From IMG/VR virus record IMGVR_UViG_2617270940_000005, positions 1-31,295 of that record: a DNA stretch of 31,295 nt. One strand, given 5' to 3'. A program made the translations under genes and the position numbers. Shown here piece by piece: positions 2,756-28,189 of the stretch. This DNA comes from a virus. Its lineage: Duplodnaviria > Heunggongvirae > Uroviricota > Caudoviricetes. Position 1 is the first letter of the stretch. Each line of letters opens with the position of its first letter. The notes below the pieces were generated by a model that did no database searches, was not told where the DNA came from, and saw only the letters and a program-made list of their open reading frames with translations.

Positions 2756-2765
2756 ACTTACTTAT
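2756..2765. repeat. Instance A of recurrent ACTTACTTAT / TAAGTA..TACTTA motif (half-site plus degenerate partner)
   Basis: acttacttat between J stop (2837) and stf start (2701). Confidence 0.5.
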
Positions 2766-2836
2766 TATCAATGATACAAAATCCTTTTGCACTAAGAAAA
2801 CACGCTATATACATTGCTGCTCATTATTCCTATCAA

Positions 2837-5800
2837 TTAACTGATGCCCGACATGGAAAATGCGCCACTTCCACGGCTGATTAGCATCACGGGCGAATAA
2901 ATATGTGTCTGTGATGAACTGGTCACTTTTACCGTAACAGCAACAGTTCTTGAGGTAACATTGTTAAAAGCAGCGTAAAGAGTGCCACCGACGCCTGTAG
3001 AACTTGTCGAATTAAGATCAGGGTCTCTGTATGTAGCCCCCTTACCAGTGGCTGCGGTCTTCGTCACTCCATTGCAGGTAAATTGGGCTGCAACAGGGCC
3101 GACGCCCCCCGTATATACATTTATTGCCACATAAATATTTTTGGGCAATGCAGACGAAGAAGAGTCTGTATATGTCATTGTATATGTGCCGCTGTTACGA
3201 ACTGAGAAGTCATTGCCCACATACATGTTAGCGACATCGCCTACGAAGTGATCTGCTTGTACCGTGCCTCTGAATGTTCCGCTGGTAGCCTGTATTTCTC
3301 CTGTGAATTTGCCATTCGTTGCGTAAACGGTGCCTCTAACAGTTACATTGTTAAACTCTGAGTTCCCGTTTTTATTAATATGCCACCCCGTCATTCCGCT
3401 TGAGTAATCGTTGGACTGAATGAAGTTGCCTATTTTGGCGTTATCAATGGTGCCGTTCTTGATATAAGCTCCGTTCATATAAGCCACACCGGCATCAATA
3501 ACGAATGGCGTTGTAATTTTCCCATTAACGGAGTTCACCAAACCAAAGCGATCTGCCTGCACCAAAAACTGCGATAGACCTGTTGTGTCGATGCCCAACG
3601 CTATGCCGGCAACATATTTTTGGCCTCCGCTGGTGGAGGTTTCCATTTTCAGCGTCCAGGCTGTTGATACCTTCTTGTTCGTATCAGCAATAGCTGTGGC
3701 CTGTTGTTGAATTGTTGCTGTATTTCCATCTACTGATGCTTTTAAGGTGTCAATTCTCCCACTTAGTGCATTGTCGGCGCTTGTACGCGTAGTCGCTTCA
3801 GATGTAATCGCAGCATGAATATCTTTGCTCGTTTGAGCCTGTAGATTAGTGATATTAGAAGCCAAAGCGGAATCAGCATCAGTTCTGGCTTTCGTCTCTT
3901 TAGCTACAGCCGCCTTAATATCCTTGCCCGTTTGACTCTTCAATGTAGTTATCTGTTGTGCCAAAGATTCGTCGGCAGTTGCTCGGGCGTTTTTTTCTTC
4001 AGATATAGCGGCACTAATATCGCCTTCAACTTTGGCTTGTAACGATAGGACTTCTTTTGAAAGTGCTTCATCGGCACTGGCTCGCGCCTCTTGTTCACTC
4101 ACAATTGCGGCAGAAATGTCATCGTTAATCTTTGATTCAAGTTTGGTGATTCTGCTTCCAATAGCATTATCCGCATCTACACGAGCCGTAGTCTCTTCAG
4201 TGATTGAAGCTCTGATATCCTCATTTATTTCAGCTCTAATCTCTTCCATTTTCGTAGCCATTGCGGACATATCATCTGCAAAAGCCTTCTGAGTTGTGGC
4301 GATCCTGGCATTGCTCACCATCTGTTTGTGCTGGTCTTCATCCTGACGCAAAGCTAAATCGATGTTTGTTTTAGCCAATGCCTCAATGTTTGTCGTCACT
4401 TCGGCACTGGAGTGCTCGACTTCAGCCACGGTTTTTTTCATCTCTTCAATGGTGGCCAAACTGCTATCTACAGTTGACTTCATTGCCTCGATTTCTTTCG
4501 CGTTCGCCAAGTCGCCTTCGACTCGTGCCTCACGTTCCTCCGCAACTAAAGCCGATGAATTGTCCAGTGCTGCATTCGCGGCCTCAACCGCTCCAGCAAC
4601 GACCTTGTCTTGCTCTGAAACAGTTTCCTTCAACTGAATTAATGCGGCATTTGAGTTTTCAACCTCCTTAAGAGCCTCTTCCACCTTGCTGACAGTATTA
4701 GAAACTTCCGTTCTAAGAACGTTTTGGGCTTCTTCAATCCGTTGATCGGTCTCAGTAAATTTGTCATCAAGGCTTTTCAGGCTTTCTTCCATCTGCTTGT
4801 TGATTGCGTCGACGGCTTCCTGCGAGGCTTTGGTGTCGATTTCCTCAAGCAGTTCCTGCCCCAATTCCGAAGAAGTGATCTTCCCGGTCAGGAAAGACAG
4901 AACATCTTTCGTCATCGCCTCAGTGCCCAAATTGGAGTTGGGCTGGCTCAACATTCCGCGTTTGTTTGCTGCACGAACCCAATAGAACCAAGTTTCGCTA
5001 TCTCCAAGACCTGCGTGCGTAAAGGTGGTACTGGCTGCTTCGGCAATTAGTTTTGCAGTATCCAGGTTGTTGGTCCGGGATGCATACACGTTGATGTGAT
5101 CGAGGTCGATTGAGTCCGGGTTAACCCAATTCAGAATCACATTGCGGTAGTCGCCCACGGCCGTCAGTGCAGTCGGTGCATCCGGCGGCGTCATCGTCCC
5201 CTGAACTTTGTAGACGGTGCTGATAATTTCTGTTTTTTTACCGTTGAATGAAACCGCATACAGTTGGAAGTCGTAGCGTCCATTCTCCGCGACATTAACG
5301 ATTTCGTATTGCTCTTCGGTTACACGCGCCGATTGCCAGTTCGATACATTGTTTGCATCAGAACGTCGCCAACTGATCCAATACTCTGGAGATTTCCCTT
5401 CCCATGTTGCAGTCAGTTTTACTGACAGGTTGCCCGGGCTTGAGAGATAAGTCCCTTCAGTGATTTGCAAATTAGACGGCTTGGAGTAAGTCGGGTCCAA
5501 TACCGTCGTATTCTGCGGGATAAGCGTTGCACCATTGTCGATCGCCTCATATTTAGACGGATTGTTTTCAACAGCGGTGATGTCAAAGCTACCCGACGTT
5601 TCCCCCTGAGCGATGTTAACGATGCGAACGCGCATAGGTTCGAGATCTGGTTCTGTAATTGTCCAGACACCGTTCAAAACAGGCGTTTCCGCTGACGACA
5701 GGGCTTTTGAAAACGTAACTTTTGTTATATTTTCGCCAGTTTCAAGAACATCGCGTTCAACGATTTTGCCTTCCTGATTCAGTATTCGAATAAAGCAGCC

Positions 5801-7417
5801 GCCTTTGGCTAACGACACAGGCGCATCGAGTGTGACGCTGTTTTTGGTAAACGCCACAATTCGACCTGAGTTACGTTTGCCTGCGCGATATTTGTTCTGA
5901 ATCAGAACGGTTTTACCAGGCATCAAAAATGACGCGTCTAAGCCGGCAGTAAATGTAATTACATCCGACTCCATTCTGGCGGTATATAAAAGCCACAAAC
6001 CAACTCGGTGAGCCTGCCCTCGGCTTGTACAGCCAAATGCTACGACTTCTGTCTTACGCTCACCATAACGGTGCATTGCGTCCTGATCTTCAACGTACTC
6101 GATGTTTTGCTTATAACCGTCCTCCTTGTTGTTGTAGGTTACGAGCGCAACGGATGGGCGATCTTTACGCGCAGAACCTTTATAGGTAAACAATCCATCT
6201 TTGACGTTAGAGTTGGTAAACATCATTACCGGATCTGATGGGCTATCCTGCATGATGTTAACCATCCCACCAGCCCAAAACACCATACCGCGGAATGCTC
6301 CAGCAATATCCTGAATTAGCCGGTATGCGTCCTGTCGACTGGTGATCTGCGTATTGATTGCAAAGCGTTTCTCTTTGCCACCAAAGCCATCATCGACCTC
6401 TTCGTCACAATATCGACCAATCTGGTACAACTGGCCAAGGTCAATCATAGATTCCGACACATACTGGCCAAGGCCATATCGAGCATTGGTCAGCAAATCA
6501 AAGAGAATCCACGCAGGGTTTGAAGAAGACAACAGCTTAAAAGTACCGTCCCATACGCCGACATAAGTATTGGTGTATTCGTTGTAGTTTGACGGTACTC
6601 GGATTTTGATACCGCGCACCAAATACGAACGGGAAGGCATTGTGCTACCAAACTGCTCTGAATTGACCTTCAAGCCAACAAGAGCAGAGTTAGGGTAGTT
6701 CATTGGCGTGTCGACAATTTCCCCGATGGAATCCACCCATGTATCGTTATAGAGATACTGAGTTTTGCTGTCGTCGGTTAGACGTATGACACGAACCTTA
6801 TATGCACGGCCAGGTTTCGGCAGTTTGAGTTCATAGCTGCGGTAGTAAACACCTGTCTTCTTCGCTGTCAGTGCAATTTCAACGTCTTTCTCACCTTCAG
6901 CAACGACATCGGCAAATGTTCCATCGCCATTGGCAATCTGGAACTTGTATTTGACTGTTGTACCGTTGGTGTCGCCGGATTTCTTATCCACGGAACGTAG
7001 AGAGGGGAATTTGAGAATGAGTCGAACGCGGTCAGCTTCATCGTTATCGATGGAGACCGTGACATCATGCGTCTTTTTCAACTGAATGTTGATGGACTTC
7101 GGCGTCTCGACGAAATCAAAACCGGCCATAGGCGTCTGATCTTGCGAACCATCGCGAAAATCCCATGTAATACCGCTGTAGTTTGCAGAGCCGTCTTCAT
7201 TGAGGATCGGCAGGTCGTCGATAAAAATCGACTTTGCTCCGTCGACAAGACCGCCAATAACGCCTTCCCCGAGCAAGTCGAGGATGGACGCCATAGCACG
7301 CGAGTTAACGGTATCATCGGCTTCAACCGGCGTGCGGCTGGAGCTGCTGCTTTTCTTGCCGCCTGCACCTGCGATCAGGAGAGGCAGTCTTTTCTTCTTG
7401 AACTGTTCCATGTTCAA
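2837..7417 (-). CDS. J: Tail tip / host-specificity protein, lambda gpJ-like, with a long coiled-coil insertion
   Basis: 1526 aa. Blocks matching lambda J as I recall it: N-terminal ILDLLGEGVIGGLVDG, NSALVGLKVNSEQFGS...RVPSNYN...GVWDGTFK, AFGCTSRGQAHRVGLWLLYT, FLTGKITSSELGQELLEEID, GQKYVAGIALG...LSQFLVQADRF. Lambda J is 1132 aa; the extra length here is a coiled-coil stretch. Confidence 0.85.
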   Translation of the reverse strand: MNMEQFKKKRLPLLIAGAGGKKSSSSSRTPVEADDTVNSRAMASILDLLGEGVIGGLVDGAKSIFIDDLPILNEDGSANYSGITWDFRDGSQDQTPMAGFDFVETPKSINIQLKKTHDVTVSIDNDEADRVRLILKFPSLRSVDKKSGDTNGTTVKYKFQIANGDGTFADVVAEGEKDVEIALTAKKTGVYYRSYELKLPKPGRAYKVRVIRLTDDSKTQYLYNDTWVDSIGEIVDTPMNYPNSALVGLKVNSEQFGSTMPSRSYLVRGIKIRVPSNYNEYTNTYVGVWDGTFKLLSSSNPAWILFDLLTNARYGLGQYVSESMIDLGQLYQIGRYCDEEVDDGFGGKEKRFAINTQITSRQDAYRLIQDIAGAFRGMVFWAGGMVNIMQDSPSDPVMMFTNSNVKDGLFTYKGSARKDRPSVALVTYNNKEDGYKQNIEYVEDQDAMHRYGERKTEVVAFGCTSRGQAHRVGLWLLYTARMESDVITFTAGLDASFLMPGKTVLIQNKYRAGKRNSGRIVAFTKNSVTLDAPVSLAKGGCFIRILNQEGKIVERDVLETGENITKVTFSKALSSAETPVLNGVWTITEPDLEPMRVRIVNIAQGETSGSFDITAVENNPSKYEAIDNGATLIPQNTTVLDPTYSKPSNLQITEGTYLSSPGNLSVKLTATWEGKSPEYWISWRRSDANNVSNWQSARVTEEQYEIVNVAENGRYDFQLYAVSFNGKKTEIISTVYKVQGTMTPPDAPTALTAVGDYRNVILNWVNPDSIDLDHINVYASRTNNLDTAKLIAEAASTTFTHAGLGDSETWFYWVRAANKRGMLSQPNSNLGTEAMTKDVLSFLTGKITSSELGQELLEEIDTKASQEAVDAINKQMEESLKSLDDKFTETDQRIEEAQNVLRTEVSNTVSKVEEALKEVENSNAALIQLKETVSEQDKVVAGAVEAANAALDNSSALVAEEREARVEGDLANAKEIEAMKSTVDSSLATIEEMKKTVAEVEHSSAEVTTNIEALAKTNIDLALRQDEDQHKQMVSNARIATTQKAFADDMSAMATKMEEIRAEINEDIRASITEETTARVDADNAIGSRITKLESKINDDISAAIVSEQEARASADEALSKEVLSLQAKVEGDISAAISEEKNARATADESLAQQITTLKSQTGKDIKAAVAKETKARTDADSALASNITNLQAQTSKDIHAAITSEATTRTSADNALSGRIDTLKASVDGNTATIQQQATAIADTNKKVSTAWTLKMETSTSGGQKYVAGIALGIDTTGLSQFLVQADRFGLVNSVNGKITTPFVIDAGVAYMNGAYIKNGTIDNAKIGNFIQSNDYSSGMTGWHINKNGNSEFNNVTVRGTVYATNGKFTGEIQATSGTFRGTVQADHFVGDVANMYVGNDFSVRNSGTYTMTYTDSSSSALPKNIYVAINVYTGGVGPVAAQFTCNGVTKTAATGKGATYRDPDLNSTSSTGVGGTLYAAFNNVTSRTVAVTVKVTSSSQTHIYSPVMLISRGSGAFSMSGIS
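3695..4186 (-). repeat. Five tandem 33-36-aa repeats within the J coiled-coil region
   Basis: Protein repeats of the form AR.-ADxAL-...I..L.S....DI.AAI..E.., residues about 1078-1241; visible as ~100-bp periodic similarity in the nucleotide sequence. Confidence 0.7.
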
Positions 7418-7427
7418 AAAATCCTTA

Positions 7428-8021
7428 TTACATAAGCTGGTCGATGGTGATAGAAGAACTCACAACCTGCGAGCCAACCAAAATTTCCTCTCCATAGATC
7501 AGCTGCACCGGGTTTCCCTGGTTAGTGGTGTTCTGCGGCCCATCGAAATAGAACGAGTCGGAGTTATCTGCCTGTCTTACACTTTCGTTAGTGGCTTGCG
7601 GAGATATGATTTGCGCTATACCGCCCATCATCAGTGACAAACCGAGAGGTGCTAAAGCAGGCATCATTACCGCCGATACAACCAACAAAGCGGCTCCTAC
7701 TACCGTCTGAAACCACCCAAAAGCAGAACCGCCGCTTCCTCGCGGAACAGGGGTAATGCGGATTTTGGCTATGTTGTCAGACTGCCCCATCATCTGATAT
7801 TCACTCTCGTCCACAGACCACTTGTGGCCCTGTTTATTGGTGATCTGGATGTGGTATCTGTCATAGGTTTTGATGTTGCGCTTCATCCATGCTTTAAACC
7901 CAGGCTTGTTGGCCGCAATTAAATCCAGAGCCTGCTTGGTGTTGCGAACTTTCAAATGCCAGTGACGACCAAAATGTTTGGCCATAGGGCCGCCAAGTTG
8001 CACATGAACTAACTCAGACAC
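7428..8021 (-). CDS. Tail assembly protein, lambda gpI-like (assigned mainly by position and size)
   Basis: 197 aa between the K-like and J-like genes; hydrophobic central segment; 3' end overlaps the K-like gene. Confidence 0.55.
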   Translation of the reverse strand: MSELVHVQLGGPMAKHFGRHWHLKVRNTKQALDLIAANKPGFKAWMKRNIKTYDRYHIQITNKQGHKWSVDESEYQMMGQSDNIAKIRITPVPRGSGGSAFGWFQTVVGAALLVVSAVMMPALAPLGLSLMMGGIAQIISPQATNESVRQADNSDSFYFDGPQNTTNQGNPVQLIYGEEILVGSQVVSSSITIDQLM

Positions 8022-9497: not shown

Positions 9498-9510
9498 TGT
9501 TTCTTCCTTG

Positions 9511-9542
9511 AAATAAAAAGGCGCCAACATCCTGTCAGCGCC
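9511..9542 (-). terminator. Intrinsic terminator-like hairpin plus U-tract between M and L
   Basis: Minus-strand RNA GGCGCUGACA-GGA-UGUUGGCGCC (10-bp stem with two G-U pairs) followed by UUUUUAUUU. Confidence 0.6.
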
Positions 9543-9550
9543 ACAATGAT

Positions 9551-9571
9551 AGTAAATTAGTACTTACTTAT
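9551..9571. repeat. Instance B of TAAGTA..TACTTA motif
   Basis: agtaaattagtacttacttat, between M stop and the terminator. Confidence 0.5.
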
Positions 9572-9579
9572 CCAGATGC

Positions 9580-9915: not shown

Positions 9916-9931
9916 CTCACATCCTTGTGAG

Positions 9932-9951
9932 ACTGCCCCGGTCGGGGCAGT
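9932..9951 (-). other. GC-rich stem-loop between tape-measure stop and M ribosome-binding site
   Basis: actgccccg-gt-cggggcagt, perfect 9-bp inverted repeat; no U-tract. Confidence 0.5.
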
Positions 9952-9957
9952 CGATAG

Positions 9958-16050: not shown

Positions 16051-16071
16051 AGTAAGTATATATTTACTTAT
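16051..16071. repeat. Instance C of TAAGTA..TACTTA motif
   Basis: agtaagtatatatttacttat, in the gap upstream of the major tail gene. Confidence 0.5.
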
Positions 16072-16075
16072 TTTG

Positions 16076-16459: not shown

Positions 16460-16460
16460 A

Positions 16461-18634: not shown

Positions 18635-18677
18635 TTTTCTTCTCACTTAATGGACAGCTATGCTGCCCATATGTTGG

Positions 18678-19117: not shown

Positions 19118-19144
19118 ACAAAAAAGGTGGGCGTATAGCCCACC
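19118..19144 (-). terminator. Intrinsic terminator after the major capsid gene
   Basis: ggtgggc-gtata-gcccacc, perfect 7-bp GC stem, followed on the minus strand by UUUUUUG. Confidence 0.7.
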
Positions 19145-19149
19145 CATAT

Positions 19150-19167
19150 TAAGTAGATAACTACTTA
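19150..19167. repeat. Instance D of TAAGTA..TACTTA motif
   Basis: taagtag-ataa-ctactta, perfect 7-bp arms; between capsid stop and the terminator. Confidence 0.6.
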
Positions 19168-19180
19168 CCTAGTATTCTGA

Positions 19181-21001: not shown

Positions 21002-22576
21002 TCACTCGGTCTCTTGAGTAGATGAGTCCCCATTCCCTCGGGGTTGATCTTGTCCGCTTTCTTGGACTGTATCGCGATCATAAGTAAGTACTGACTTATT
21101 TTCAAGGGCGCCAGGAGCATTTTTTAGAGGAAATTTCAAGAGATCTTTTTTAAATTCCTTTTGCATCGCTTCGGAAATATTCGGGAAGATCTTTTCTATG
21201 AGCATTTCCATCTGATGACGACGTACAGAATCAGGCGCCTGTAACAGCGACAATTTCTCAGCGACGGCAAATTCGTCAGTCAGACCACGAATATCGAAAC
21301 TCTCCGGGTAAGCGATCAGAGAGTGGTCTTCATCCAATTCGATGCCCATCCATTTCGCAGCCAACTCCATCATTTGGCGTTCTGCCCTTTCGAGGCGCTC
21401 TGCTTTTGTCACCAACAGACTGTTAATACGTTGGAAGTCGTACATCTTCGCTGCCCCCGAAGAGTTGTCGATACCCTGCGCGTTATCCTGCTTGGTTCGC
21501 TCACCAGCCACACCAACGGAATGGTAGATCTCATTAATCACCGTCTTAATCGTGGTGATGATCATCTGAGCCTGTTTCGGGTCTGGAGACAGATAGAATG
21601 GCTGATTACCGCTCTCAGAATCGAAGGTGAAGACACGTTTTGTCCCCATTTCGAGCACTTTGGTGTGGTTTTCATCGCCCGGCAGCAGGGACTGAACCGG
21701 AATCGCTAACTGGCTGAATGTCTGATCCTGAATAATCGCGTCAAGGTTCGACAGGTAGTTGGCCACGGCGCGATCAAGATAGGCAATATCGTCAATCAAC
21801 GACGGGCTAAAATACGGAGACTCGCTTTCACCAATGCAATCCACCGGGAACACCGGCACCACGCCCAGATTATGCTGGCCGCTATCCTCCAGAACGACTT
21901 TGGCCTGACGGCGACCGCTATTTCCGGAACCCTTCTTCACTTCTTCACGGAACAGATACCACTCGTTTTGCGTCCACAGACGGTAACGCTGGTATTCCTG
22001 CCCGGTTGAAGTGAACGGATCTTCGTCGTCGCGCGCGATTTCAACAATCAGCGCCCACAACATATTGCCGTCTTCATCCCAGGCAACATCAAGCAGCTGC
22101 TGCGGCGAAATCCAGTAAGCGTAGGCACGCGCATCATTTTTCTTCTCGTCTGCAACAGACTCAACATCGACGTTCATCGTGCTATCCACGACAACCCAGA
22201 TACGGCCATAAATGGATGATTGCAGATCGATAGCCGCCATAAACGCATCGATGGAGGCGTTCTGGCGCGTGGCTCGCTTCCAGAAATTGCGGATCTGCTC
22301 CGGTGCTTCATCAGTGTTGCGGTGAATGACCTCTTTGAAGAGGTATTTGTTGATGAGGTTTACCACTTCGCGCGTATGATTGAAGCGATAAGCGCGTTCC
22401 AGGCGCTCTTTGAACTCCTGATCGCCCTCTTTGAAGTAACGGAAGATATTGTCGTTGAACCAGGCACGCCCGCCAGCATAGGTGCTGGCGAGGAAGTCCC
22501 AATGTTCTTTTTTCTTCTCATATTCAGGGTGGCGTCGTGCCACAAGGTCTTTGATTTGCTTATCAGTCAATTCCAT
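21002..22576 (-). CDS. Portal protein candidate
   Basis: 524 aa immediately downstream of the large terminase with a 30-nt gap; acidic C-terminus; assigned by position and size. Confidence 0.6.
   Translation of the reverse strand: MELTDKQIKDLVARRHPEYEKKKEHWDFLASTYAGGRAWFNDNIFRYFKEGDQEFKERLERAYRFNHTREVVNLINKYLFKEVIHRNTDEAPEQIRNFWKRATRQNASIDAFMAAIDLQSSIYGRIWVVVDSTMNVDVESVADEKKNDARAYAYWISPQQLLDVAWDEDGNMLWALIVEIARDDEDPFTSTGQEYQRYRLWTQNEWYLFREEVKKGSGNSGRRQAKVVLEDSGQHNLGVVPVFPVDCIGESESPYFSPSLIDDIAYLDRAVANYLSNLDAIIQDQTFSQLAIPVQSLLPGDENHTKVLEMGTKRVFTFDSESGNQPFYLSPDPKQAQMIITTIKTVINEIYHSVGVAGERTKQDNAQGIDNSSGAAKMYDFQRINSLLVTKAERLERAERQMMELAAKWMGIELDEDHSLIAYPESFDIRGLTDEFAVAEKLSLLQAPDSVRRHQMEMLIEKIFPNISEAMQKEFKKDLLKFPLKNAPGALENKSVLTYDRDTVQESGQDQPRGNGDSSTQETE
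21080..21099. repeat. Instance F of TAAGTA..TACTTA motif (inside the portal 3' coding region)
   Basis: ataagtaagt-actgacttat, 20-bp palindrome with one mismatch; a half-site gttacttatcac at 20994-21005 overlaps the portal stop. Confidence 0.5.
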
Positions 22577-22592: not shown

Positions 22593-22612
22593 TTAAGTAA
22601 GCACTTACTTAT
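22593..22612. repeat. Instance G of TAAGTA..TACTTA motif
   Basis: ttaagtaag-ca-cttacttat, overlaps the large terminase stop, ~17 nt upstream of the portal start. Confidence 0.6.
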
Positions 22613-23865
22613 CTAGATCCACCAAGAATAACACGATTTTTCACTGGATACCTACGATGAACCGGATACCCCAACGCATCCGCACTGTGCTCGACGCCGC
22701 CTGTCTTATCCATATCGCGTGAGCCTGGCTTGTAGATCACCTTCTCCAGCGAGTCGATGAGGTGTTTGCACTTCGGATCGACGTACAACCGGGTTTCGCC
22801 CGAGGCACTCATCAACATGCGGTTCACGGCGTTCACACGGTCTGCGATCGGTGGGTGTTTCTTCGGATAGTCGACTCGAAGGAAACCTTTCTCTTTGAAG
22901 ATGTCGACGTCAGATTCGCCGCGTGCGTGCTGGCGATACGCACCTGCCGGGTCAGGAAAGATAGTGACCTGAGATTTCCAGCGCCAGTATCGACGCTCCA
23001 GCTCGTCACACACTTCAGCCGTGTTAGAAGAGAACAACACCAATTCGTCCACAGCCCACAGTTCACCATTTGGCTGCGGTTGCAGGATGACCGAGGACAT
23101 AGGGTCAATGTTGAAGTCCTGACCAACCCAGATCGGAAGTTTCGGGTTGAACTGGAGTGGCTTCACATGCACATCGCGATCGAACGGGTAATAAACGCGT
23201 CCGGACATGTTTTCGAAGCTGGCCAGGTATTCCTGTGCGAACGATTTAGGGTCCATATCGTTCTTCGCTGCTTCGATTTCCGCGCTCGGTACGAACGGAG
23301 AATCGGCCGTAACGAACTGCCAGCTCTTCCACTGCCCCTTGCGTTGCAAATCTTTGTTCTGACCGATAGTCCACAGCTTGTGGAACTCGGAGAAGCCTTT
23401 TGGCGTACCGATGATCAGCGCACCGCCACGGGTGGAGGACAGTGTCGGACGCAGTACCTTGTACCAGGTGTCAGGCTTCATATCCTGAAATTCATCGAGC
23501 ACCACAAAGTGCAGTGCCACACCACGAAGCGTATCGGGCTTATCCGCACCTTTCAGCGCGATTTCAGAGCCGTTCTTCAGCACGATGGTCATCGTGGTGT
23601 CGTTTTTCTTACGAACCCATTTGCGCGGCAGAACTTCCTGCAGGTCATCCCACAAGATCTGGCGAGCCATCTGGTAAGTCGGTGCGACATACCAGACACG
23701 TTGCTTCTTCTCTTTGGCTGCCGCGCGGATGATGGTGGAGATCGACAACCGGGATTTACCCCAGCGTCGACCCGCACACACCACTTTGAAACGATGTGGC
23801 GACTGGAAGACTTGCATCTGCCCAGAATGCAGCTGTACGAGACTCAGAGACGACGGGATGGCCAT
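22609..23865 (-). CDS. Terminase large subunit
   Basis: 418 aa; Walker A VVCAGRRWGKS, Walker B HFVVLDEFQD, nuclease-domain motif WVGQDFNIDPMSSV. Confidence 0.85.
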   Translation of the reverse strand: MAIPSSLSLVQLHSGQMQVFQSPHRFKVVCAGRRWGKSRLSISTIIRAAAKEKKQRVWYVAPTYQMARQILWDDLQEVLPRKWVRKKNDTTMTIVLKNGSEIALKGADKPDTLRGVALHFVVLDEFQDMKPDTWYKVLRPTLSSTRGGALIIGTPKGFSEFHKLWTIGQNKDLQRKGQWKSWQFVTADSPFVPSAEIEAAKNDMDPKSFAQEYLASFENMSGRVYYPFDRDVHVKPLQFNPKLPIWVGQDFNIDPMSSVILQPQPNGELWAVDELVLFSSNTAEVCDELERRYWRWKSQVTIFPDPAGAYRQHARGESDVDIFKEKGFLRVDYPKKHPPIADRVNAVNRMLMSASGETRLYVDPKCKHLIDSLEKVIYKPGSRDMDKTGGVEHSADALGYPVHRRYPVKNRVILGGSR

Positions 23866-23867
23866 AG

Positions 23868-24509
23868 TCAGACGCTCCCATCACTTTCATCACCAGACGC
23901 GTCAGAATCGCCCTCAGCTTCGCTCAGTGCTTCCTCTTCGAGTGACTCAAGCAGATCGTCATCAATCAGATCCGGCTCATCATCTTCCTTACGCAGCTGC
24001 GCCACCTGGGAAGGCGTAAGTTCGCCAAATACCAGGTTCGGGATTTCGTCTTCTTCGTTCTCAGCGCGATCCATACCGAGCGCTTTCGACGATATTTCGA
24101 AGCACTTAGCGAGTGTTCCGCTGGCACGCTGGAGACTCTTCAGGTCATCTTCGATGGCTGCCAGTGGCCTGCCGTCCTTCTTGGCTGTGGCCACCTCATG
24201 CATCACCATACGACCGAGTGCGAACGCCCAATCGTCGTAACGAGTCCGGCGCTCTTCGATTTTCTCTGCACGCGCCTTCGCACGCAGCTCTGCGTCGGAT
24301 TTGAGCGACTCGCGCACCATCTTCCCAACGGAGTCCGCGCCTTTCTCTAATCCACGCTTTTTGAAATGTCTGGAGAGCGTTTCACGACGAATGCCGTACT
24401 CTTCCTCCAGCCTGGAGAGTGTGTATTCGCCGGAAGTCCACTTCGCTTCAGCTTCTGCCCACCCAGCTGGTGTCAGGCGAGTTTTGCTCTCGTCTTTTTC
24501 TACAGTCAT
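23868..24509 (-). CDS. Terminase small subunit candidate (HTH N-terminus, acidic C-terminal tail)
   Basis: 213 aa immediately upstream of the large terminase; helix-turn-helix-like TLSRLEEEYGIRRETLSRHFKKRG; AGAGGGA RBS. Confidence 0.55.
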   Translation of the reverse strand: MTVEKDESKTRLTPAGWAEAEAKWTSGEYTLSRLEEEYGIRRETLSRHFKKRGLEKGADSVGKMVRESLKSDAELRAKARAEKIEERRTRYDDWAFALGRMVMHEVATAKKDGRPLAAIEDDLKSLQRASGTLAKCFEISSKALGMDRAENEEDEIPNLVFGELTPSQVAQLRKEDDEPDLIDDDLLESLEEEALSEAEGDSDASGDESDGSV

Positions 24510-24610
24510 AGATCCCTCTAAAACACTCAGAGCGCATCCTTGCGCTTCTAAACAACTTGTTTAATTCAGTGCCTAACCAATTTGTTTTCTTGGTGTTTAA
24601 AACCGGGCTG

Positions 24611-24696
24611 GGGAGTATTCAGAACCTGCTTCCGTATATATTTAATAAGTCACTTAGTATTTATATATACGGAAGCAGGCTCTCAAACTGACTCCC
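24611..24696. promoter_or_regulatory. Long dyad-symmetry element: 17-bp perfect inverted repeat with central TAAGT-C-ACTTA palindrome
   Basis: cctgcttccgtatatat (24625-24641) and atatatacggaagcagg (24663-24679), flanked by gggagt/actccc (24611-16 / 24691-96); spacer holds taagtcactta (24646-24656). Lies between the six-gene operon and the small terminase gene. Confidence 0.6.
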
Positions 24697-24704
24697 AGAC
24701 CGAC

Positions 24705-24971
24705 TTACATCACCAGTAATTTGGCTCTGGCACGACCTAACGTGGTCAGTCCCAGCGTGCGACGGTGGTAGCCGGAATCACCGCGCTGGCGGCACATTCC
24801 TTTCTCCACCAGCCCCTTTTTCACCAGTGCGCGGATAGAGAACTGCATACTCTGTTTGGTCGTTTTGTACGGCAGCACTTCAAGCAGCTCGTCCAGATCG
24901 AGCAGATGCCCACGCTCATGGCCTAAATTGATGGTTTTGATGATGTCTTTTTGTTTGTCGGTCAACGTCAT
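24705..24971 (-). CDS. Small basic protein, possible winged-helix DNA-binding protein
   Basis: 88 aa; last gene of the coupled operon; KQSMQFSIRALVKKGLVEK looks like a recognition helix. Confidence 0.4.
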   Translation of the reverse strand: MTLTDKQKDIIKTINLGHERGHLLDLDELLEVLPYKTTKQSMQFSIRALVKKGLVEKGMCRQRGDSGYHRRTLGLTTLGRARAKLLVM

Positions 24972-24980
24972 GGCAAATCC

Positions 24981-25880
24981 TTATGCCGGTAATGCAATTT
25001 CAAGAGGTTTATTCAAAGGCTGTTTGTCGAATGCCAGCAGTGGCAGCGTGTCCGGCAGCTGACGACCAAAGTCCGGGTTTCGGTACACGCCATACAGCGG
25101 AGACGTGAAGCTCAGGTTGTGAATGTCCTTGAGCAGCTTCACGATGCTGGCCTCGTCCACCAGGCTGTCGGCAATGTCCTGAATCGTCGTGCCACGATTA
25201 CGCCCGGCTTTGGCCAGGGAACTGTTCTTGTGGTAGTCAGCGACCAGATCACGCAGCGCACGACGACGGCGAGACTCACTCATGGCGAACAGCTCTTTGA
25301 CGATCGCTTCGTTGTCGCCAGGGTCAGAACGGAAATGACGCTGGAAGACGCGCAACGCACTCTCATAGCTCTTCGGACGCTCCGGACGGATGAATTGGAA
25401 CCCTGCTTTCATGGCGAACGGGTTGTATTTGCTCATCGACGACTGGATCTCGATGATTGGCCGGTCGTGCATCCTGCTAACCAGGTTAATCATTCGATAG
25501 GAGACGCCGACACCGCGGTACTGAGTGTCAACAACGGAACGGCTGATCACGGCAAAGTTGTTGTTCACGTACCGGCCCCAATACTGGTTGGCCACGGTGG
25601 TATTGGTGGTTGGCTTCAGCTTAGGAAACATGCGATGGCGAGGCGCCAGCAGCAGTTTCGGGTAAGCCATAACCACGACGCCCACCAACCGGTCGTCCAG
25701 TTCGCAGCGATAATACGTTGGCGCGAACGGCTTACCATCCGTCTTGTAGTGCAGCGACTTCAGCGCGTGCCAGTCTTCAACCGTGCCTTTGGTAACGGTC
25801 ATACGCTCCAGAAAGTTCAGATGACGCGGGAACTCTTCCGGGCGGTAGCGTTTGATGATGATGCCTGTCATGTCGATCAC
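24981..25880 (-). CDS. Hypothetical protein with possible GNAT-like acyltransferase fold
   Basis: 299 aa; VISRSVVDTQYRGVGVSYRMINLV resembles GNAT motif A (R/Q-x-x-G-x-G/A). Track start is GTG overlapping the upstream stop; alternative ATG at 25871. Confidence 0.3.
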   Translation of the reverse strand: MIDMTGIIIKRYRPEEFPRHLNFLERMTVTKGTVEDWHALKSLHYKTDGKPFAPTYYRCELDDRLVGVVVMAYPKLLLAPRHRMFPKLKPTTNTTVANQYWGRYVNNNFAVISRSVVDTQYRGVGVSYRMINLVSRMHDRPIIEIQSSMSKYNPFAMKAGFQFIRPERPKSYESALRVFQRHFRSDPGDNEAIVKELFAMSESRRRRALRDLVADYHKNSSLAKAGRNRGTTIQDIADSLVDEASIVKLLKDIHNLSFTSPLYGVYRNPDFGRQLPDTLPLLAFDKQPLNKPLEIALPA

Positions 25881-26131
25881 CTGCGCTCGATATTGGCATT
25901 GATGAAGTCCAGGCGAAGCGATTCCATCGCCCCAACCATGACGTATGGACGCCCACCGTTATGCCAGCAATCCATAACATTGCCGTCGTTGTCGATCATC
26001 AGCAGAGCCAGGCTCTGACTTTTGCCTTCTCTTGCGTACTGGAGTGCTTCTTCCAGCAGGCGGATGACTTCAACGTTGTTGTTGTCAGTCTCTTTCGATG
26101 GCTTCAGCTCTACGATCTTCAAATCAGGCAT
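25877..26131 (-). CDS. Hypothetical 84-aa protein
   Basis: Overlaps the ATPase gene end by 8 nt and the downstream gene start; no recognisable motif. Confidence 0.45.
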   Translation of the reverse strand: MPDLKIVELKPSKETDNNNVEVIRLLEEALQYAREGKSQSLALLMIDNDGNVMDCWHNGGRPYVMVGAMESLRLDFINANIERR

Positions 26132-26762
26132 ATTCCACCTTCACACGTTCTTTGTAGTGCTTGGTGATCTGCATATCCGGGCGCAGCGCGTTCTTCAGAT
26201 CTTCGTGGGTCGTCGCCACCATTACCGTTGCGCCGACCTTACGAGCAGCACGTTGGAGGTTTGACGCCACAACCTGAGCGGTTACCCGGTCGAGAACAGC
26301 ACCAAATTCGTCTGCTGCCCAGACTTTGGCGCCGGACTCGATCAGCTTGGCGATCTTGAGACGGTATTTCTGGCCGTCAGACATCTCGGATGGCTTGCGC
26401 ACAAAAAGATAGGCGTCATTCAATCCGGCCATAGACAGCAAGCCCAGCGCTTCACTGGTGGTTTTGCCCAGCTGGTCGATGACGTTAACCTCATTGTCGA
26501 AATTAAAATTATCGATGGAGGCCACAGAAAGCCCTTCATCTTTCATCTGGCGTTGTAGCTCGCGCAGAACAACAGATTTACCTGAACCGGATTGGCCGGT
26601 GATGTACACCACATCGCCCTGCTTCACTTCCAGCTCCAGATTGTCGTAAAGCGTCCACTCTTTTTCGTCCAGGCCAAGACCGAACGATTCGGCAATCTCC
26701 AGCGTGCGCGTGGTTTTGTTCACGCGAGTCTGAAACGATACATTGATGGTGTATTTGCTCAT
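26124..26762 (-). CDS. Small ABC-type ATPase (nucleotide-binding domain only)
   Basis: 212 aa; Walker A GQSGSGKS, signature-like MSDGQKYRL, Walker B/D-loop KVWAADEFGAVLD, H-loop VATTHEDL; start ATG overlaps the upstream stop (ATGA). Confidence 0.8.
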   Translation of the reverse strand: MSKYTINVSFQTRVNKTTRTLEIAESFGLGLDEKEWTLYDNLELEVKQGDVVYITGQSGSGKSVVLRELQRQMKDEGLSVASIDNFNFDNEVNVIDQLGKTTSEALGLLSMAGLNDAYLFVRKPSEMSDGQKYRLKIAKLIESGAKVWAADEFGAVLDRVTAQVVASNLQRAARKVGATVMVATTHEDLKNALRPDMQITKHYKERVKVEYA

Positions 26763-27427
26763 GCAGCCAGCTCCCCAGAGGAAACTTTCTCCGCATACGC
26801 CACGAAAGCGTCTACCCCGCTTTCTCCCGTAATTTCTTCCATGTGGGCAAGCAAATCCCCAACCACAATGGCAGAGCCAGCAGGGAGCGTTTTAAAGCCC
26901 AATACGTCGATGACTCGGACTTCTTCAGAGGCTACTTCGCGACTGATCCCGGTGTGCTCTTCTTTCTGGCGTTCCGTCTCTTCACCCAGATCGAGCACCA
27001 GAGAGCCTGTTTCCATCTCTTCGGTCATGCTGCCAACAAGCACGTTCAGCTCTCGCTCTTCAAAACCAAAGACCTCAACGTCACCCAGCACCAGGGACTC
27101 CAGTTCCTGCTGCAATTTGATGGCGTCGTAGTCAATACTGGCCAGGCGGTTGTCTTCAAGACGCTTCGCCTTCACTTCTTCTTCGCTCAGATCGTCGCGA
27201 ACGATGACAGGCACACGCTCCAGACCAGCCAGAAGTGCCGCCTCGCGACGACCGTGACCAGTAATGATGACGTCGTGCTTGTCGACCGTGATCGGCTGGT
27301 CAAAACCGCGCTTTTTGATGGCAGCCGCCAGGTCGCGGATCTGCTGTTCGTCATGTTTTTTGGCGTTCATCTCATACGGGATAAGTTCTGCCGGGTTTCG
27401 ATATACGATTTCAAAGTTCTTGGTCAT
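26759..27427 (-). CDS. ParB/Srx-like N-terminal domain protein (second of tandem pair)
   Basis: Start refined to ATG 27427, overlapping the upstream stop (TAATG). ParB-type motif ITGHGRREAALLAGLERVPVIV; acidic helical C-terminal half. Confidence 0.75.
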   Translation of the reverse strand: MTKNFEIVYRNPAELIPYEMNAKKHDEQQIRDLAAAIKKRGFDQPITVDKHDVIITGHGRREAALLAGLERVPVIVRDDLSEEEVKAKRLEDNRLASIDYDAIKLQQELESLVLGDVEVFGFEERELNVLVGSMTEEMETGSLVLDLGEETERQKEEHTGISREVASEEVRVIDVLGFKTLPAGSAIVVGDLLAHMEEITGESGVDAFVAYAEKVSSGELAA

Positions 27428-28107
27428 TACATACGCTCCTTGTAGTAGTCGACCAGCCACACCAAGGCTTCCCCGGCGTTCTCCATTTCGTTACCGGTAT
27501 TGATTCCCTGCTCTTTGATGATGGTTTTGATGGTATCGGCGACGCGATCTGACGCATCGAACGTCACTTTGAAGCGCATCGTCTGGTGTTCAGCACCGAC
27601 TCGCTCGATTTTCTCGCGTTTGTCCTCACCGATCGGCTCGTCATCGCCGCGGGAGAGCGCTTCCAGCGCTTCAAGATCGATAACGGATGCTTTGGCGAGC
27701 GTTGCCGCCATTTCGTCGTCATACGGGGCGATATCAGACAACCGGTAGTCAATTTCAGACTGAATTTCTTCGATTAAGCGTTGCAAAGCGATCTGATCGT
27801 CTTCGCCGTAGCGCTCGTTATCGACGAGAGACATCTGTTTGGCCACCAGGTCGTTAATTTTTCCCACCGAGATGACGGGAACCGTTGAAATGCCCTGCTC
27901 CATCGCGGCACGCCAGCGATGTTCGCCACCGAGAATCTCAAAAATGCCGCCGTCCAGCTCTCGCGCCAGAATTGGCTTAAAAAAGCCCAACTTTTCGATG
28001 GAACCTTTCAGTTTTTCGAAGTTTTGCGCCCCAACGGAGTTGGTATTCCAGGGGTTCGGACGCAGGTTCGCGACTTCCACCTGTAGAATCGTAATTTTCA
28101 CATCCAT
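27427..28107 (-). CDS. ParB/Srx-like N-terminal domain protein (first of tandem pair)
   Basis: 226 aa; LRPNPWN...ILGGEHRWRAAMEQGISTVPVI matches the ParB N-terminal domain arginine-rich motif; first gene of the operon. Confidence 0.75.
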   Translation of the reverse strand: MDVKITILQVEVANLRPNPWNTNSVGAQNFEKLKGSIEKLGFFKPILARELDGGIFEILGGEHRWRAAMEQGISTVPVISVGKINDLVAKQMSLVDNERYGEDDQIALQRLIEEIQSEIDYRLSDIAPYDDEMAATLAKASVIDLEALEALSRGDDEPIGEDKREKIERVGAEHQTMRFKVTFDASDRVADTIKTIIKEQGINTGNEMENAGEALVWLVDYYKERM

Positions 28108-28189
28108 ATTTTTGATACAATCTATTGTGTAAGTACTTACTTAACATAATAGCCAATTACCATACAAAAGGCACGAAGGAAAGAGGTTT
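28108..28189. promoter_or_regulatory. Divergent intergenic control region between the ParB operon and the helicase operon
   Basis: 82-bp AT-rich gap between divergent starts, containing the motif palindrome and possible -35/-10-like hexamers (TTGATA, CATAAT) with non-ideal spacing. Confidence 0.5.
28129..28140. repeat. Instance H of TAAGTA..TACTTA motif (perfect 12-bp palindrome)
   Basis: gtaagtacttac, followed by ttaacat. Confidence 0.65.

What the first reader, a model, noticed from the sequence alone, without database searches (positions are those of the whole stretch)
2756..28140. Recurrent palindromic AT-rich motif TAAGTA(N0-5)TACTTA at operon junctions
At least eight sites carry the same dyad-symmetric motif: 2756-2765, 9551-9571, 16051-16071, 19150-19167 (taagtag-ataa-ctactta), 21080-21099 (ataagtaagt-actgacttat), 22593-22612 (taagtaag-ca-cttactta), 24646-24656 (taagt-c-actta) and 28129-28140 (gtaagtacttac). 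Almost all sit in the short gaps between gene stops and the next start. That is far more than chance for a 12-20-bp palindrome in 31 kb, and the motif does not look like a sigma-70 promoter or a GC-rich terminator. It is most simply explained as the operator or promoter element for a phage-encoded regulator (late activator, repressor or alternative sigma/RNAP), or a site for a DNA-acting enzyme. In three cases (A, B, D) the order is gene stop, then motif, then GC hairpin, then next gene, suggesting a composite regulatory unit.
Basis: seen in the sequence. Interest (0 to 1): 0.72.

Follow-up and report, generated by a model that had tools for sequence, protein, structure and literature searches.

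The report
Repeated palindromic operator in a phage-plasmid
A 20-base palindrome recurs at about 28 gene junctions of an SSU5-type E. coli phage-plasmid and its relatives; it is most likely the binding site through which one phage regulator, probably the prophage repressor, gates each block of lytic genes.

Summary
The element is a 20-bp palindrome, ATA(A/G)GTAAGTACTTAC(C/T)TAT, read on the gene-sense (minus) strand. The eighth (24646-24656) is the loop of an unrelated 24-nt-arm inverted repeat.

The window comes from an SSU5/pHCM2/pLF82-type phage-plasmid. Whole genomes of this type carry 27-29 sites, against about 0.1 expected by chance. In SSU5, 25 of 27 are not fully inside annotated coding sequence. 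They stand before early genes as well as late ones.

Sites stay at the same junctions in relatives down to 68% portal identity. The outer arms stay constant, and in one clade the inner bases change in both halves.

The two halves are no more complementary than independent conservation predicts. This points to a dimeric DNA-binding protein, not an RNA hairpin.

About a quarter of sites fill the spacer of near-consensus sigma-70 promoters. Published RNA-seq shows those promoters silent in a lysogen and partly on under stress. In the late region the motif is followed within 3-14 nt by an intrinsic terminator.

Best reading: a genome-wide operator of a phage regulator, probably a repressor. The strongest candidate is an XRE-type HTH protein encoded outside the window. 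It is a new member of a known kind, of moderate interest.

The parts
2746..2765 (-). Motif site A (ATAAGTAAGTATATACCTAT). It lies 71 nt after the stop of the 1526-aa tail protein gene and upstream of the tail-fibre gene (start 2701).
   Evidence: Scores 26.3 bits. TTGATA lies immediately upstream, at 2771-2766. Orthologous to SSU5 21937 and Cyrano 22448. Tail-fibre CDS taken from the annotation of pEC21Z137-115K.
2722..2743 (-). GC-rich hairpin GTGTGGGCAAGGACGCCCACAC, 2 nt after site A, with no T run.
   Evidence: Sequence read. It did not pass the terminator criteria.
9552..9571 (-). Motif site B (ATAAGTAAGTACTAATTTAC), 8 nt after the stop of the gene at 9580-9915.
   Evidence: Scores 24.3 bits. 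Overlapped by the sigma-70-like pair TGGATA-17-TATCAT, 9574-9546.
9520..9542 (-). Intrinsic terminator 9 nt after site B (10-bp stem, then TTTTTATTT). The minor tail L gene follows.
   Evidence: -14.0 kcal/mol.
16052..16071 (-). Motif site C (ATAAGTAAATATATACTTAC), 4 nt after the stop at 16076 and 50 nt before the ATG of the Ig-domain tail protein gene (16001).
   Evidence: Scores 22.6 bits. Sigma-70-like pair TTGAAT-18-TATACT at 16084-16055. At the orthologous Cyrano site 9018 the RNA level steps up by 2.5 log2 units.
19153..19172 (-). Motif site D (CTAGGTAAGTAGTTATCTAC), 8 nt after the major capsid gene stop (19181).
   Evidence: Scores 16.7 bits. Orthologues are SSU5 5471, Cyrano 5443 and L049 13411.
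19125..19145 (-). Intrinsic terminator 7 nt after site D (GGGTGGGCTATACGCCCACCT plus TTTTTG), followed by a ribosome-binding site and the ATG at 19106.
   Evidence: -14.9 kcal/mol. The arrangement is conserved in all clades.
21077..21105 (-). Near-consensus sigma-70 promoter TTGAAA-17-TATGAT inside the 3' end of the portal ORF. Motif site E (21080-21099, ATAAGTCAGTACTTACTTAT) makes up its spacer.
   Evidence: A 10/12 hexamer match; motif 27.2 bits. The -35 and -10 are kept in three clades while the spacer and the encoded amino acids change.
22593..22612 (-). Motif site F (ATAAGTAAGTGCTTACTTAA). It overlaps the TerL stop codon and lies 16 nt before the portal ATG (22576).
   Evidence: Scores 26.4 bits. 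SSU5 has G4/C17 where the window has A4/T17, a symmetric double change.
28125..28144 (.). Motif site H, in the 82-bp divergent region between the ParB-like gene (start 28107, minus strand) and the UvsW-like helicase operon (start 28190, plus strand). A -10-like CATAAT follows it on the plus strand.
   Evidence: Scores 17.4 bits. Sequence read. In Cyrano the helicase-side operon is expressed in the lysogen and the ParB side is silent.
24618..24686 (.). NOT a member.
   Evidence: The repeat recurs three times per genome in SSU5 and Cyrano.
24705..24971 (-). 88-aa winged-helix protein just upstream of the small terminase gene.
   Evidence: AlphaFold pLDDT 83.5. Foldseek matches MarR, MepR, MexR and PadR at TM 0.72-0.76, E about 3e-4. 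The predicted recognition helix is invariant across clades. At background in the lysogen.
29751..30029 (+). 92-aa conserved protein in the operon that starts at site H. A second candidate binder.
   Evidence: Its Cyrano homologue CYRAN_117 is 12-fold above background in the lysogen. Found only in SSU5-type elements. No DNA-binding fold could be shown.

Best explanation
The motif is the operator of a phage-encoded, two-fold-symmetric (dimeric) DNA-binding regulator.

One 20-bp palindrome is placed at about 27-29 junctions around the roughly 105-115 kb phage-plasmid. Its outer arms ATARGTA / TACYTAT are constant; the inner bases are specific to each clade.

At these junctions it occupies the -35/-10 spacer of sigma-70-type promoters, or sits directly upstream of a -10-like hexamer. 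A bound dimer would therefore occlude host RNA polymerase at the start of each lytic transcription unit.

I think the regulator is most likely the prophage repressor that keeps the plasmid-prophage silent. The best candidate is the XRE-type HTH protein encoded next to the integrase, outside this window.

In the late region the operator-promoter is fused to an intrinsic terminator 3-14 nt downstream. Transcripts coming from upstream would end there. Transcripts started at the local promoter would begin inside the 5' arm of the terminator stem and so escape termination.

What is shown:
- The motif exists, is strongly enriched, lies at junctions and is conserved.
- Complementarity between the halves is only weakly above what independent conservation predicts.
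- A subset of sites coincide with strong sigma-70 hexamers.
- Those promoters are silent in a lysogen, and RNA levels step up after several sites under stress.

What is inferred:
- That a protein binds the motif.
- The sign of regulation.
- The identity of the binder.
- The position of the transcription start inside the terminator stem.
For: ENRICHMENT
- SSU5: 27 sites of at least 14 bits against 0.04 expected. 25 of 27 are not fully inside annotated coding sequence, in a genome that is 88% coding.
- Cyrano: 27 sites of at least 12 bits at orthologous junctions.
- pEC21Z137-115K, 99.6% identical to the first 9 kb of the window: 29 sites against 0.12 expected.

CONSERVATION
- Sites are kept at the same junctions across 80 IMG/VR loci, down to 68% portal identity.
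- Clade B changes the inner bases in both halves, to roughly ATAGGTRGTT-RRCTACCTAT. Clade C keeps only the arms, as 7-N6-7.

PROTEIN SITE RATHER THAN RNA
- Watson-Crick complementarity between halves is 1048, against 1029 +/- 10 in column-preserving shuffles.
- G:T pairs (123) are not favoured over A:C (96).

PROMOTER LINK
- 6-7 of about 24 sites per genome coincide with forward sigma-70 scores above the 99th percentile, with the palindrome forming the spacer or part of it. Examples are TTGAAA-17-TATGAT, TTGAAA-17-TATCAT and TTGATA-17-TAACAT.
- In the portal 3' end the hexamers are kept in three clades while the spacer and the encoded amino acids change.

EXPRESSION (supplementary RNA-seq table of PMC9928086)
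- Genes behind these promoters are at background in LF82 lysogens.
- At 6 h in macrophages, 6 of the 12 largest step-ups fall on the 23 of 101 junctions that carry the motif.
- Motif junctions show larger discontinuities: median |delta log2| 1.7 against 0.87, one-sided p = 0.023.

TERMINATOR COUPLING
- 46 distinct contexts have a strong terminator 3-14 nt after the motif.
- The gap often holds a -10-like hexamer, including TATAAT in clade C.

CANDIDATE REPRESSOR
- The XRE-type gene next to the integrase is 10-fold above background in the lysogen.
- It is found in about 830 SSU5-type plasmids.
- It is absent from the free phage isolate SSU5, which keeps all the sites.
- It carries a conserved TTTACA-16-TAATAT promoter followed by the core palindrome GGTAAGCACTTACC in four genera. 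Moellerella has a full motif instead.
Against: - No binding or transcription-start data exist.
- Forward and reverse sigma-70 scores around the sites do not differ overall (Wilcoxon p = 0.5), and most sites lack a recognisable -35. Many sites may therefore not be promoters at all.
- Five sites lie only 1-17 nt from the next start codon. That leaves no room for a normal leader if transcription started there.
- In several units the predicted start would fall at the first bases of the terminator stem, so termination might still occur.
- Silence in lysogens fits equally well with promoters that need an absent activator, or with H-NS-type silencing of AT-rich DNA.
- The HTH assignment of the candidate repressor is weak: one Pfam hit below threshold (E 8e-4) plus RefSeq product names.
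- The site at the candidate's own promoter has only the inner core of the motif.
- Site H sits at a promoter that is active in the lysogen.
Confidence: 0.55

Rival explanations
1. Activator-dependent promoter element. The palindrome would be bound by a lytic-phase activator, for example the 88-aa winged-helix protein upstream of terS. The activator would substitute for the missing -35, as Lpa does at the 9-bp inverted repeat of the 11 P1 late promoters.
For: - Most sites lack a good -35 but are followed by TAT(c)AT-like hexamers.
- P1, another phage-plasmid, uses an inverted repeat as its late-activator site (PMC10695390).
- The 88-aa protein has a MarR/PadR-like winged-helix fold and lies immediately upstream of the small terminase gene. 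That is where Gram-positive phages keep late activators such as RinA, according to the abstract of PMC3152322.
- Its RNA rises in macrophages together with the genes behind motif sites.
Against: - Several motif-bearing promoters are already near-consensus (TTGAAA-17-TATGAT or TATCAT) and yet silent in lysogens. This calls for repression rather than missing activation.
- The palindrome fills the spacer, where a bound dimer competes with RNA polymerase.
- The sites precede early as well as late genes.
- From my own knowledge, MarR-fold proteins are mostly repressors.
Confidence: 0.2
2. Pure elongation roadblocks. A repressor bound in short intergenic gaps would stop read-through, independently of any local promoter, as at the stoperators of Cluster A mycobacteriophages.
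For: - More than 25 sites lie in very short gaps, some overlapping stop codons or lying 1-17 nt from the next start.
- The sites occur in both early and late operons.
- L5-type repressors act at more than 20 such sites (PMC9283540).
- The isolate SSU5 lacks the candidate repressor but keeps the sites. From my own knowledge, this parallels phage D29.
Against: - Stoperators are asymmetric 13-mers bound by a monomer, and they depend on orientation. This site is a 20-bp palindrome with only weak flank asymmetry.
- Intrinsic terminators already sit beside many sites.
- A quarter of sites carry conserved promoter hexamers.
Confidence: 0.12
3. Binding sites for a chromosome- or plasmid-organising protein rather than a transcription factor. 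This could be host SlmA, or one of the two phage ParB-like proteins acting like KorB or a dispersed centromere.
For: - The consensus core GTAAGTACTTAC obeys the published SlmA rules: G, T, A and G at positions 1, 2, 4 and 5, any purine at position 3 and any pyrimidine at position 6 (PMC3020112).
- Two ParB_N-domain genes head the late operon, just beside site H.
- From my own knowledge, KorB and N15 SopB use palindromes dispersed around their replicons.
Against: - Only 2 of 7 window sites, 3 of 27 SSU5 sites and 1 Cyrano site satisfy the full SlmA rule. The SlmA-critical positions are less conserved than the outer arms, and clades B and C break the rule.
- No HTH domain was detected in the ParB-like proteins.
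- The ParB-like genes are silent in lysogens.
- The plasmid has a separate ParA partition module.
Confidence: 0.07
4. An RNA-level element. The palindrome would fold as an AU-rich hairpin in polycistronic mRNA and serve as a processing or stability signal.
For: - The element is transcribed as part of inter-cistronic regions.
- It often lies just 5' of a second hairpin.
- Positions 4 and 17 covary as A-T or G-C.
Against: - Overall complementarity is only about 1.8 sd above the shuffle control, and G:U is not preferred over A:C.
- Many sites have 3-5 mismatched pairs out of 10.
- Conservation is of specific bases in each half, and clade C keeps the arms but not the pairing of the inner bases.
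- There is no Rfam match.
Confidence: 0.04

Closest known systems
Dispersed operators of the phage P1 C1 repressor (own knowledge), and the P1 late promoters with an Lpa-bound 9-bp inverted repeat (PMC10695390)
   Same: Both are plasmid-prophages of enterobacteria. In both, one regulator acts at many short sites spread over a genome of about 100 kb, each at the head of a separate transcription unit. P1 has at least 45 units.
   Different: The C1 operator is an asymmetric 17-mer. The Lpa sites are restricted to 11 late promoters. The SSU5-type site is a single 20-bp palindrome used before both early and late genes. I did not test for a C1 or Lpa homologue.
Stoperators of Cluster A mycobacteriophages (L5, TipsytheTRex; PMC9283540)
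   Same: There are more than 20 repressor sites per genome, both at promoters and in short intergenic gaps of the early and late operons. Site consensus varies between immunity groups (PMC6550527, title and abstract only). SSU5, a free phage isolate, lacks the candidate repressor but keeps the sites.
   Different: Stoperators are 13-bp, asymmetric, bound by a monomer and dependent on orientation. The SSU5-type site is 20-bp and palindromic, in a Gram-negative host, and often fused to an intrinsic terminator. An elongation block has not been shown here.
Classical lambdoid, P22 or 434-type palindromic operators that overlap promoters (own knowledge)
   Same: A dyad-symmetric site of 14-20 bp lies within or over the -35/-10 region. 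The presumed binder is an HTH dimer. The regulator's own promoter carries a site.
   Different: Lambdoid operators cluster in one immunity region of 2 x 3 sites. Here there are about 28 single sites around the genome and no tandem arrays.
SlmA-binding sequence of E. coli (GTGAGTACTCAC; PMC3020112)
   Same: The inner 12 bp of the consensus (GTAAGTACTTAC) fit the published specificity rules.
   Different: Few actual sites fit. The outer arms, which SlmA does not need, are the best conserved part.

Membership tests
Repressor operator overlapping a sigma-70 promoter | A dyad-symmetric site with each half conserved independently, as expected for a protein dimer | tested here: met
   The consensus is a 20-bp palindrome. 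Complementarity is only about 1.8 sd above the column shuffle. Clade B changes the inner bases in both halves.
Repressor operator overlapping a sigma-70 promoter | The site lies within or over the -35/-10 elements of a promoter | tested here: inconclusive
   Met at 6-7 of about 24 sites per genome and at 3 of the 7 window sites. The remaining sites have weak hexamers or none.
Repressor operator overlapping a sigma-70 promoter | The controlled promoters are silent in the lysogen and come on at induction | tested here: met
   Re-reading of the PMC9928086 supplementary table. Expression is at background in LB. There are step-ups after Cyrano sites 3527, 9018, 57446 and 59399 at 6 h in macrophages. 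The data were not designed for this purpose.
Repressor operator overlapping a sigma-70 promoter | A cognate repressor expressed in the lysogen, with a site at its own promoter | tested here: inconclusive
   The XRE-type candidate is 10-fold above background and has a core palindrome at -48 to -29 from its ATG in four genera. Whether it binds is unknown.
Repressor operator overlapping a sigma-70 promoter | Demonstrated protein-DNA binding | not testable with these tools
   Needs EMSA or ChIP.
Mycobacteriophage stoperators | More than 20 sites per genome, in short intergenic spaces of early and late operons | tested here: met
   27-29 sites per genome. In SSU5, 25 of 27 are not fully inside annotated coding sequence.
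Mycobacteriophage stoperators | An asymmetric 13-mer bound by a monomer, with orientation tied to the direction of transcription | tested here: not met
   The site is a palindromic 20-mer. The flanks are nearly symmetric (aWR...YAt), with only a modest excess of A upstream.
Mycobacteriophage stoperators | Blocks transcription elongation | not testable with these tools
   No assay is available. RNA levels drop at several junctions, but terminators sit there as well.
P1 Lpa-type late promoter | An inverted repeat plus a -10, restricted to late genes | tested here: not met
   Sites also precede the SSB, nrdA, thyX, dam and sbcD genes and helicase-region genes.
P1 Lpa-type late promoter | An Lpa homologue is encoded | not tested
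   No Lpa sequence was compared.
SlmA-binding sequence | GTRAGY-RCTYAC with G, T, A and G at positions 1, 2, 4 and 5 | tested here: not met
   Only 2 of 7 window sites, 3 of 27 SSU5 sites and 1 Cyrano site comply. Clades B and C do not comply.
ParB/parS or KorB/OB-type sites | A ParB-family protein with a sequence-specific HTH domain, and a centromere-like function | tested here: inconclusive
   Only the ParB_N domain was detected in the two ParB-like proteins. Both genes are silent in lysogens. Binding was not testable.
Structured RNA element or Rfam family | Pairing kept through compensatory change, or a match to a known family | tested here: not met

The most novel reading that the evidence does not exclude
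SSU5-type phage-plasmids may silence and then release their whole lytic genome through one palindromic operator copied to about 28 junctions.

In the late region the operator would be built into a three-part insulator: operator, -10, then a terminator whose 5' stem arm contains the transcription start. Read-through from upstream would be terminated, while locally started and regulator-gated transcripts would escape.

This would be a Gram-negative, symmetric-site counterpart of mycobacteriophage stoperators, with a promoter-embedded terminator design that I did not find described in the searched literature.
Probability: 0.3. Interest if true: 0.65.

Novelty: new member of a known kind. Interest (0 to 1): 0.45.

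Why it matters
SSU5/pHCM2/pMT1/pLF82-type phage-plasmids are very common. More than 800 PLSDB records from Klebsiella, E. coli, Enterobacter, Yersinia pestis and Salmonella carry the linked genes.

Their regulation appears essentially uncharacterised. My full-text searches found no description of this motif.

A defined operator gives three things:
- A map of the probable lytic transcription units.
- A short list of candidate regulators to test.
- A possible reason why the isolate SSU5 grows as a free phage: it lacks the candidate repressor but keeps the sites.

It would also give a handle for predicting immunity groups among these plasmids, using the clade-specific inner bases. Finally, it offers compact parts that might be re-used: repressible promoters fused to terminators.

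Tried and rejected
- The literal pattern TAAGTA-N0-5-TACTTA gave one hit only. I replaced it with the 20-mer and a weight matrix.
- RNA hairpin: rejected on the complementarity and G:U tests and the lack of any Rfam hit.
- Directionality: forward and reverse sigma-70 scores are not different overall. The upstream A-tract is mostly the mirror image of the downstream 'cat'.
- SlmA sites: the consensus fits, but the individual sites do not. tblastn with SlmA, using a sequence recalled from memory, found no phage homologue.
- FljA-like protein (30474-31109) as the regulator: more likely a host-directed flagellin repressor. It is absent from clade C, which keeps the motif.
- Recombination between motif copies as the cause of the deletions in IMG/VR contig L007: the deletion endpoints are not at sites.
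- Finding the binder by covariation across clades: the 88-aa recognition helix is invariant while the 92-aa protein diverges fast. Neither pattern is decisive.
- A 2026 bioRxiv preprint on an SSU5-type phage-plasmid, which mentions promoters many times, could not be opened.

Full report
WHAT THE WINDOW IS

The window is about 95% identical to Salmonella phage SSU5 and 81-82% identical to E. coli and Klebsiella phage-plasmids such as Cyrano (pLF82). Its first 9 kb are 99.6% identical to E. coli plasmid pEC21Z137-115K, and 894 PLSDB plasmids share this region.

Coordinates 2837-28107 carry the structural and packaging genes on the minus strand. In order these are: two ParB_N proteins, two ABC-type ATPases, an 88-aa protein, TerS, TerL, portal, capsid and tail genes. 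The tail-fibre gene runs off the left end. From 28190 a divergent operon runs on the plus strand: a UvsW-like helicase, a 92-aa protein, a lipoprotein and an FljA-like protein.

CHECKING THE OBSERVATION

The pattern as written matches only once. The eight sites nevertheless share a longer element. On the gene-sense strand it reads ATAAGTAAGTACTTACTTAT.

- With up to 3 mismatches it occurs 4 times against 0.00 expected.
- Its core TARGTA-N6-TAYYTA, with up to 1 mismatch, gives 17 strand-hits at 7 loci against 0.22 expected.
- A weight matrix recovers seven sites: 2746, 9552, 16052, 19153, 21080, 22593 and 28125.

It is the loop of an inverted repeat with 24-nt arms.

The motif-then-hairpin order is real at 2746, 9552 and 19153. 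Two of these hairpins are textbook terminators.

SCOPE BEYOND THE WINDOW

The motif is not a feature of this window or of late genes.

- SSU5 has 27 sites of at least 14 bits against 0.04 expected. 25 of these are not fully inside annotated coding sequence, in a genome that is 88% coding.
- Cyrano has 27 sites of at least 12 bits at the same junctions.
- pEC21Z137-115K has 29 sites against 0.12 expected.

Sites stand before the genes for portal, scaffold/capsid, major tail protein, minor tail L, tail fibre and holin. They also stand before the SSB, sbcD, nrdA, thyX and dam genes and the region of the replicative helicase. Several overlap the stop codon of the upstream gene or lie only 1-17 nt from the next start codon.

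CONSERVATION

In 80 IMG/VR loci centred on the portal gene, the sites persist at orthologous junctions down to 68% portal identity.

The outer arms ATARGTA / TACYTAT are constant. The inner bases are AAGT|ACTT in the SSU5/Cyrano/Klebsiella clade and change in both halves to roughly RGTT|RRCT in a second clade. They are unconstrained in the Moellerella-type clade, where the site is 7-N6-7.

DNA SITE OR RNA HAIRPIN?

I compared 149 distinct sites. The two halves are Watson-Crick complementary at 1048 positions, against 1029 +/- 10 when right halves are shuffled among sites. G:T pairs (123) are not preferred over A:C (96). Only positions 4 and 17 covary.

This is the signature of two independently conserved half-sites, which means a dimeric protein. 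It is not the signature of a selected hairpin. There is no Rfam match.

RELATION TO PROMOTERS

The palindrome is not itself a sigma-70 promoter. Promoter scores around the sites are the same in both directions overall, and the flanks are nearly mirror-symmetric.

However, 6-7 of about 24 sites per genome coincide with forward -35/-10 pairs above the 99th percentile of the genome. In these, the palindrome forms the 17-bp spacer or part of it. Examples:

- TTGAAA-17-TATGAT in the portal 3' end (window 21105-21077).
- TTGAAT-18-TATACT (window 16084-16055).
- TGGATA-17-TATCAT (window 9574-9546).
- TTGAAA-17-TATCAT and TTGATA-17-TAACAT elsewhere in the genome.

At the portal-internal site the hexamers are kept in all three clades, while the spacer follows the clade-specific motif and the encoded amino acids change. 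The constraint there is on the DNA, not on the protein.

EXPRESSION DATA

I re-read the per-gene table for Cyrano in E. coli LF82 (PMC9928086, supplementary file 2).

In LB-grown lysogens, genes behind motif sites sit at background. This includes the genes behind the near-consensus promoters (CYRAN_4/5 and CYRAN_56).

At 6 h in macrophages, RNA levels step up directly after the sites that carry strong hexamers:

- +1.2 log2 units at 3527.
- +2.5 at 9018.
- +3.6 at 57446.
- +3.7 at 59399.

Six of the 12 largest step-ups fall on the 23 of 101 junctions that carry the motif. Motif junctions also show larger discontinuities, with a median of 1.7 against 0.87 (one-sided p = 0.023).

Consensus-like promoters that are silent in the lysogen argue for repression. 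The palindrome is the only conserved element on them.

COUPLING TO TERMINATORS

In 46 distinct sequence contexts, a strong hairpin-plus-T-run begins 3-14 nt after the motif, and this holds in all clades. The gap often holds a -10-like hexamer: TAACAT, TATTAT, TAATAT, and TATAAT in clade C.

With such a -10, transcription would start inside the 5' arm of the terminator stem. Local transcripts could then not form the full hairpin, while read-through transcripts from upstream would. It remains an inference: in some units the predicted start falls at the first bases of the stem.

WHO BINDS?

The candidates inside the window:

- The 88-aa protein (24705-24971) models confidently as a MarR/PadR-like winged helix (pLDDT 83.5; TM about 0.75 to MarR, MepR and MexR). 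Its predicted recognition helix is invariant across clades. Its gene is at background in the lysogen.
- The two ParB_N proteins are also at or below background, and no HTH domain was detected in them.
- The 92-aa protein (29751-30029) is 12-fold above background in lysogens and is confined to this plasmid family. No DNA-binding fold could be shown for it.

The best candidate lies outside the window. It is a 128-aa XRE-type HTH protein next to the integrase, annotated as the putative repressor in Cyrano.

- It is 10-fold above background in the lysogen.
- It occurs in about 830 SSU5-type plasmids and in 9 of the 12 SSU5-like phage records.
- It is missing from the free phage isolate SSU5, which keeps all the sites.
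- Its own promoter, TTTACA-16-TAATAT, is followed by the core palindrome GGTAAGCACTTACC. This is conserved in E. coli, Klebsiella, Yersinia pestis and Enterobacter lineages. Moellerella has a full motif upstream instead.

This looks like negative autoregulation at a weaker site. The HTH call itself is weak (Pfam E 8e-4, below threshold).

ALTERNATIVES

- An activator model of the P1 Lpa type (PMC10695390) is not excluded. It would suit the many sites without a -35.
- A stoperator-like roadblock (PMC9283540) fits the distribution of sites but not their symmetry.
- The consensus core fits the SlmA specificity rules (PMC3020112), but only a few actual sites do.
- I found no description of this motif in the searchable literature. 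One possibly relevant 2026 preprint could not be opened.

VERDICT

This is a real, highly non-random, family-wide cis element. It is most probably the operator of a phage regulator that gates about 28 lytic transcription units.

- Confidence about 0.75 that it is a regulator-binding site tied to transcription initiation or boundaries.
- Confidence about 0.55 for the full stated model with negative control.
- Confidence about 0.4 that the XRE protein is the binder.

It is a new member of a known kind. Its multi-site layout is unusual for an enterobacterial phage, and the fusion to terminators is distinctive.

Noticed in passing
window 24618-24686; SSU5 (L001-L003) about 33450-33510, about 78300-78360 and the two record ends; Cyrano about 31160 and about 78080: A long inverted repeat, CCTGCTTCCGTATATAT...ATATATACGGAAGCAGG, with 24-nt arms (RNA fold -36 kcal/mol). 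It recurs three times per genome at module boundaries: before terS, before the replication-helicase block and after dam. The SSU5 GenBank record is linearised exactly inside its loop. It could be a strong terminator or insulator, or related to the packaging end.
   Followed up: partly
window 30474-31109 (+): The protein matches Pfam Flag1_repress (FljA, repressor of phase-1 flagellin) at E 1e-69. It is probably a host-directed gene that shuts off host flagellin. It is absent from the Moellerella-type clade.
   Followed up: partly
window 28190-29748 (+): The UvsW-like helicase gene is split by a frameshift near 28420-28429. Residues 1-80 are in frame 2 and residues 78-519 in frame 1, relative to SSU5_124. 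This is either a pseudogene or a sequencing error.
   Followed up: yes
window 28129-28140 and 22597-22608: These two motif cores (GTAAGTACTTAC and GTAAGCACTTAC) satisfy every published specificity rule for the E. coli nucleoid-occlusion protein SlmA. The plasmid might therefore bind SlmA at a few places, even though this does not explain the motif family.
   Followed up: yes
window 24981-25880 and 26124-26762 (-), with 26759-28107: A conserved block lies upstream of terS: ParB_N, ParB_N, an ABC ATPase, a small ORF in some lineages, and a 299-aa protein that PHROG 886 labels an ABC transporter ATP-binding subunit and Cyrano annotates as an ABC-type ATPase fused to an acetyltransferase domain (no Pfam hit). 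The two ATPase-like proteins are 75-81% identical even where the portal is only 68% identical. Their function is unknown.
   Followed up: no
SSU5 78890-79021 (L002 28890-29021); Cyrano 78657-78791 (CYRAN_81): A 44-codon ORF is 98% identical between genomes that are 81% identical overall, and is 12-fold above background in the lysogen. It may be a small regulatory RNA rather than a protein. It has no Rfam match.
   Followed up: partly
SSU5 38178 and 84178; Cyrano 34730 and 84620; pEC21Z137-115K 33811 and 93610: At two sites outside the window, the motif is followed 5 nt later by a box resembling an extended -10: TGTAAGAAT at most of these sites, with TGAAAGAAT at pEC21Z137-115K 33811. The gene behind one of them (CYRAN_34) is 4-fold above background in the lysogen, so not every motif site is silent.
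   Followed up: partly
L007 (IMG/VR contig, 100% portal identity) against window 4006-18784 and 22870-24986: This contig lacks the tail gene block and the region from the 88-aa gene into TerL. It is either a defective derivative or a misassembly. The deletion endpoints are not at motif sites.
   Followed up: yes
pEC21Z137-115K 26353-26790 (L088); Cyrano 42188-42622: An XRE-type regulator gene and an integrase gene form a pair that is present in almost all SSU5-type plasmids but missing from the phage isolate SSU5. The regulator's promoter carries the core of the motif.
   Followed up: yes
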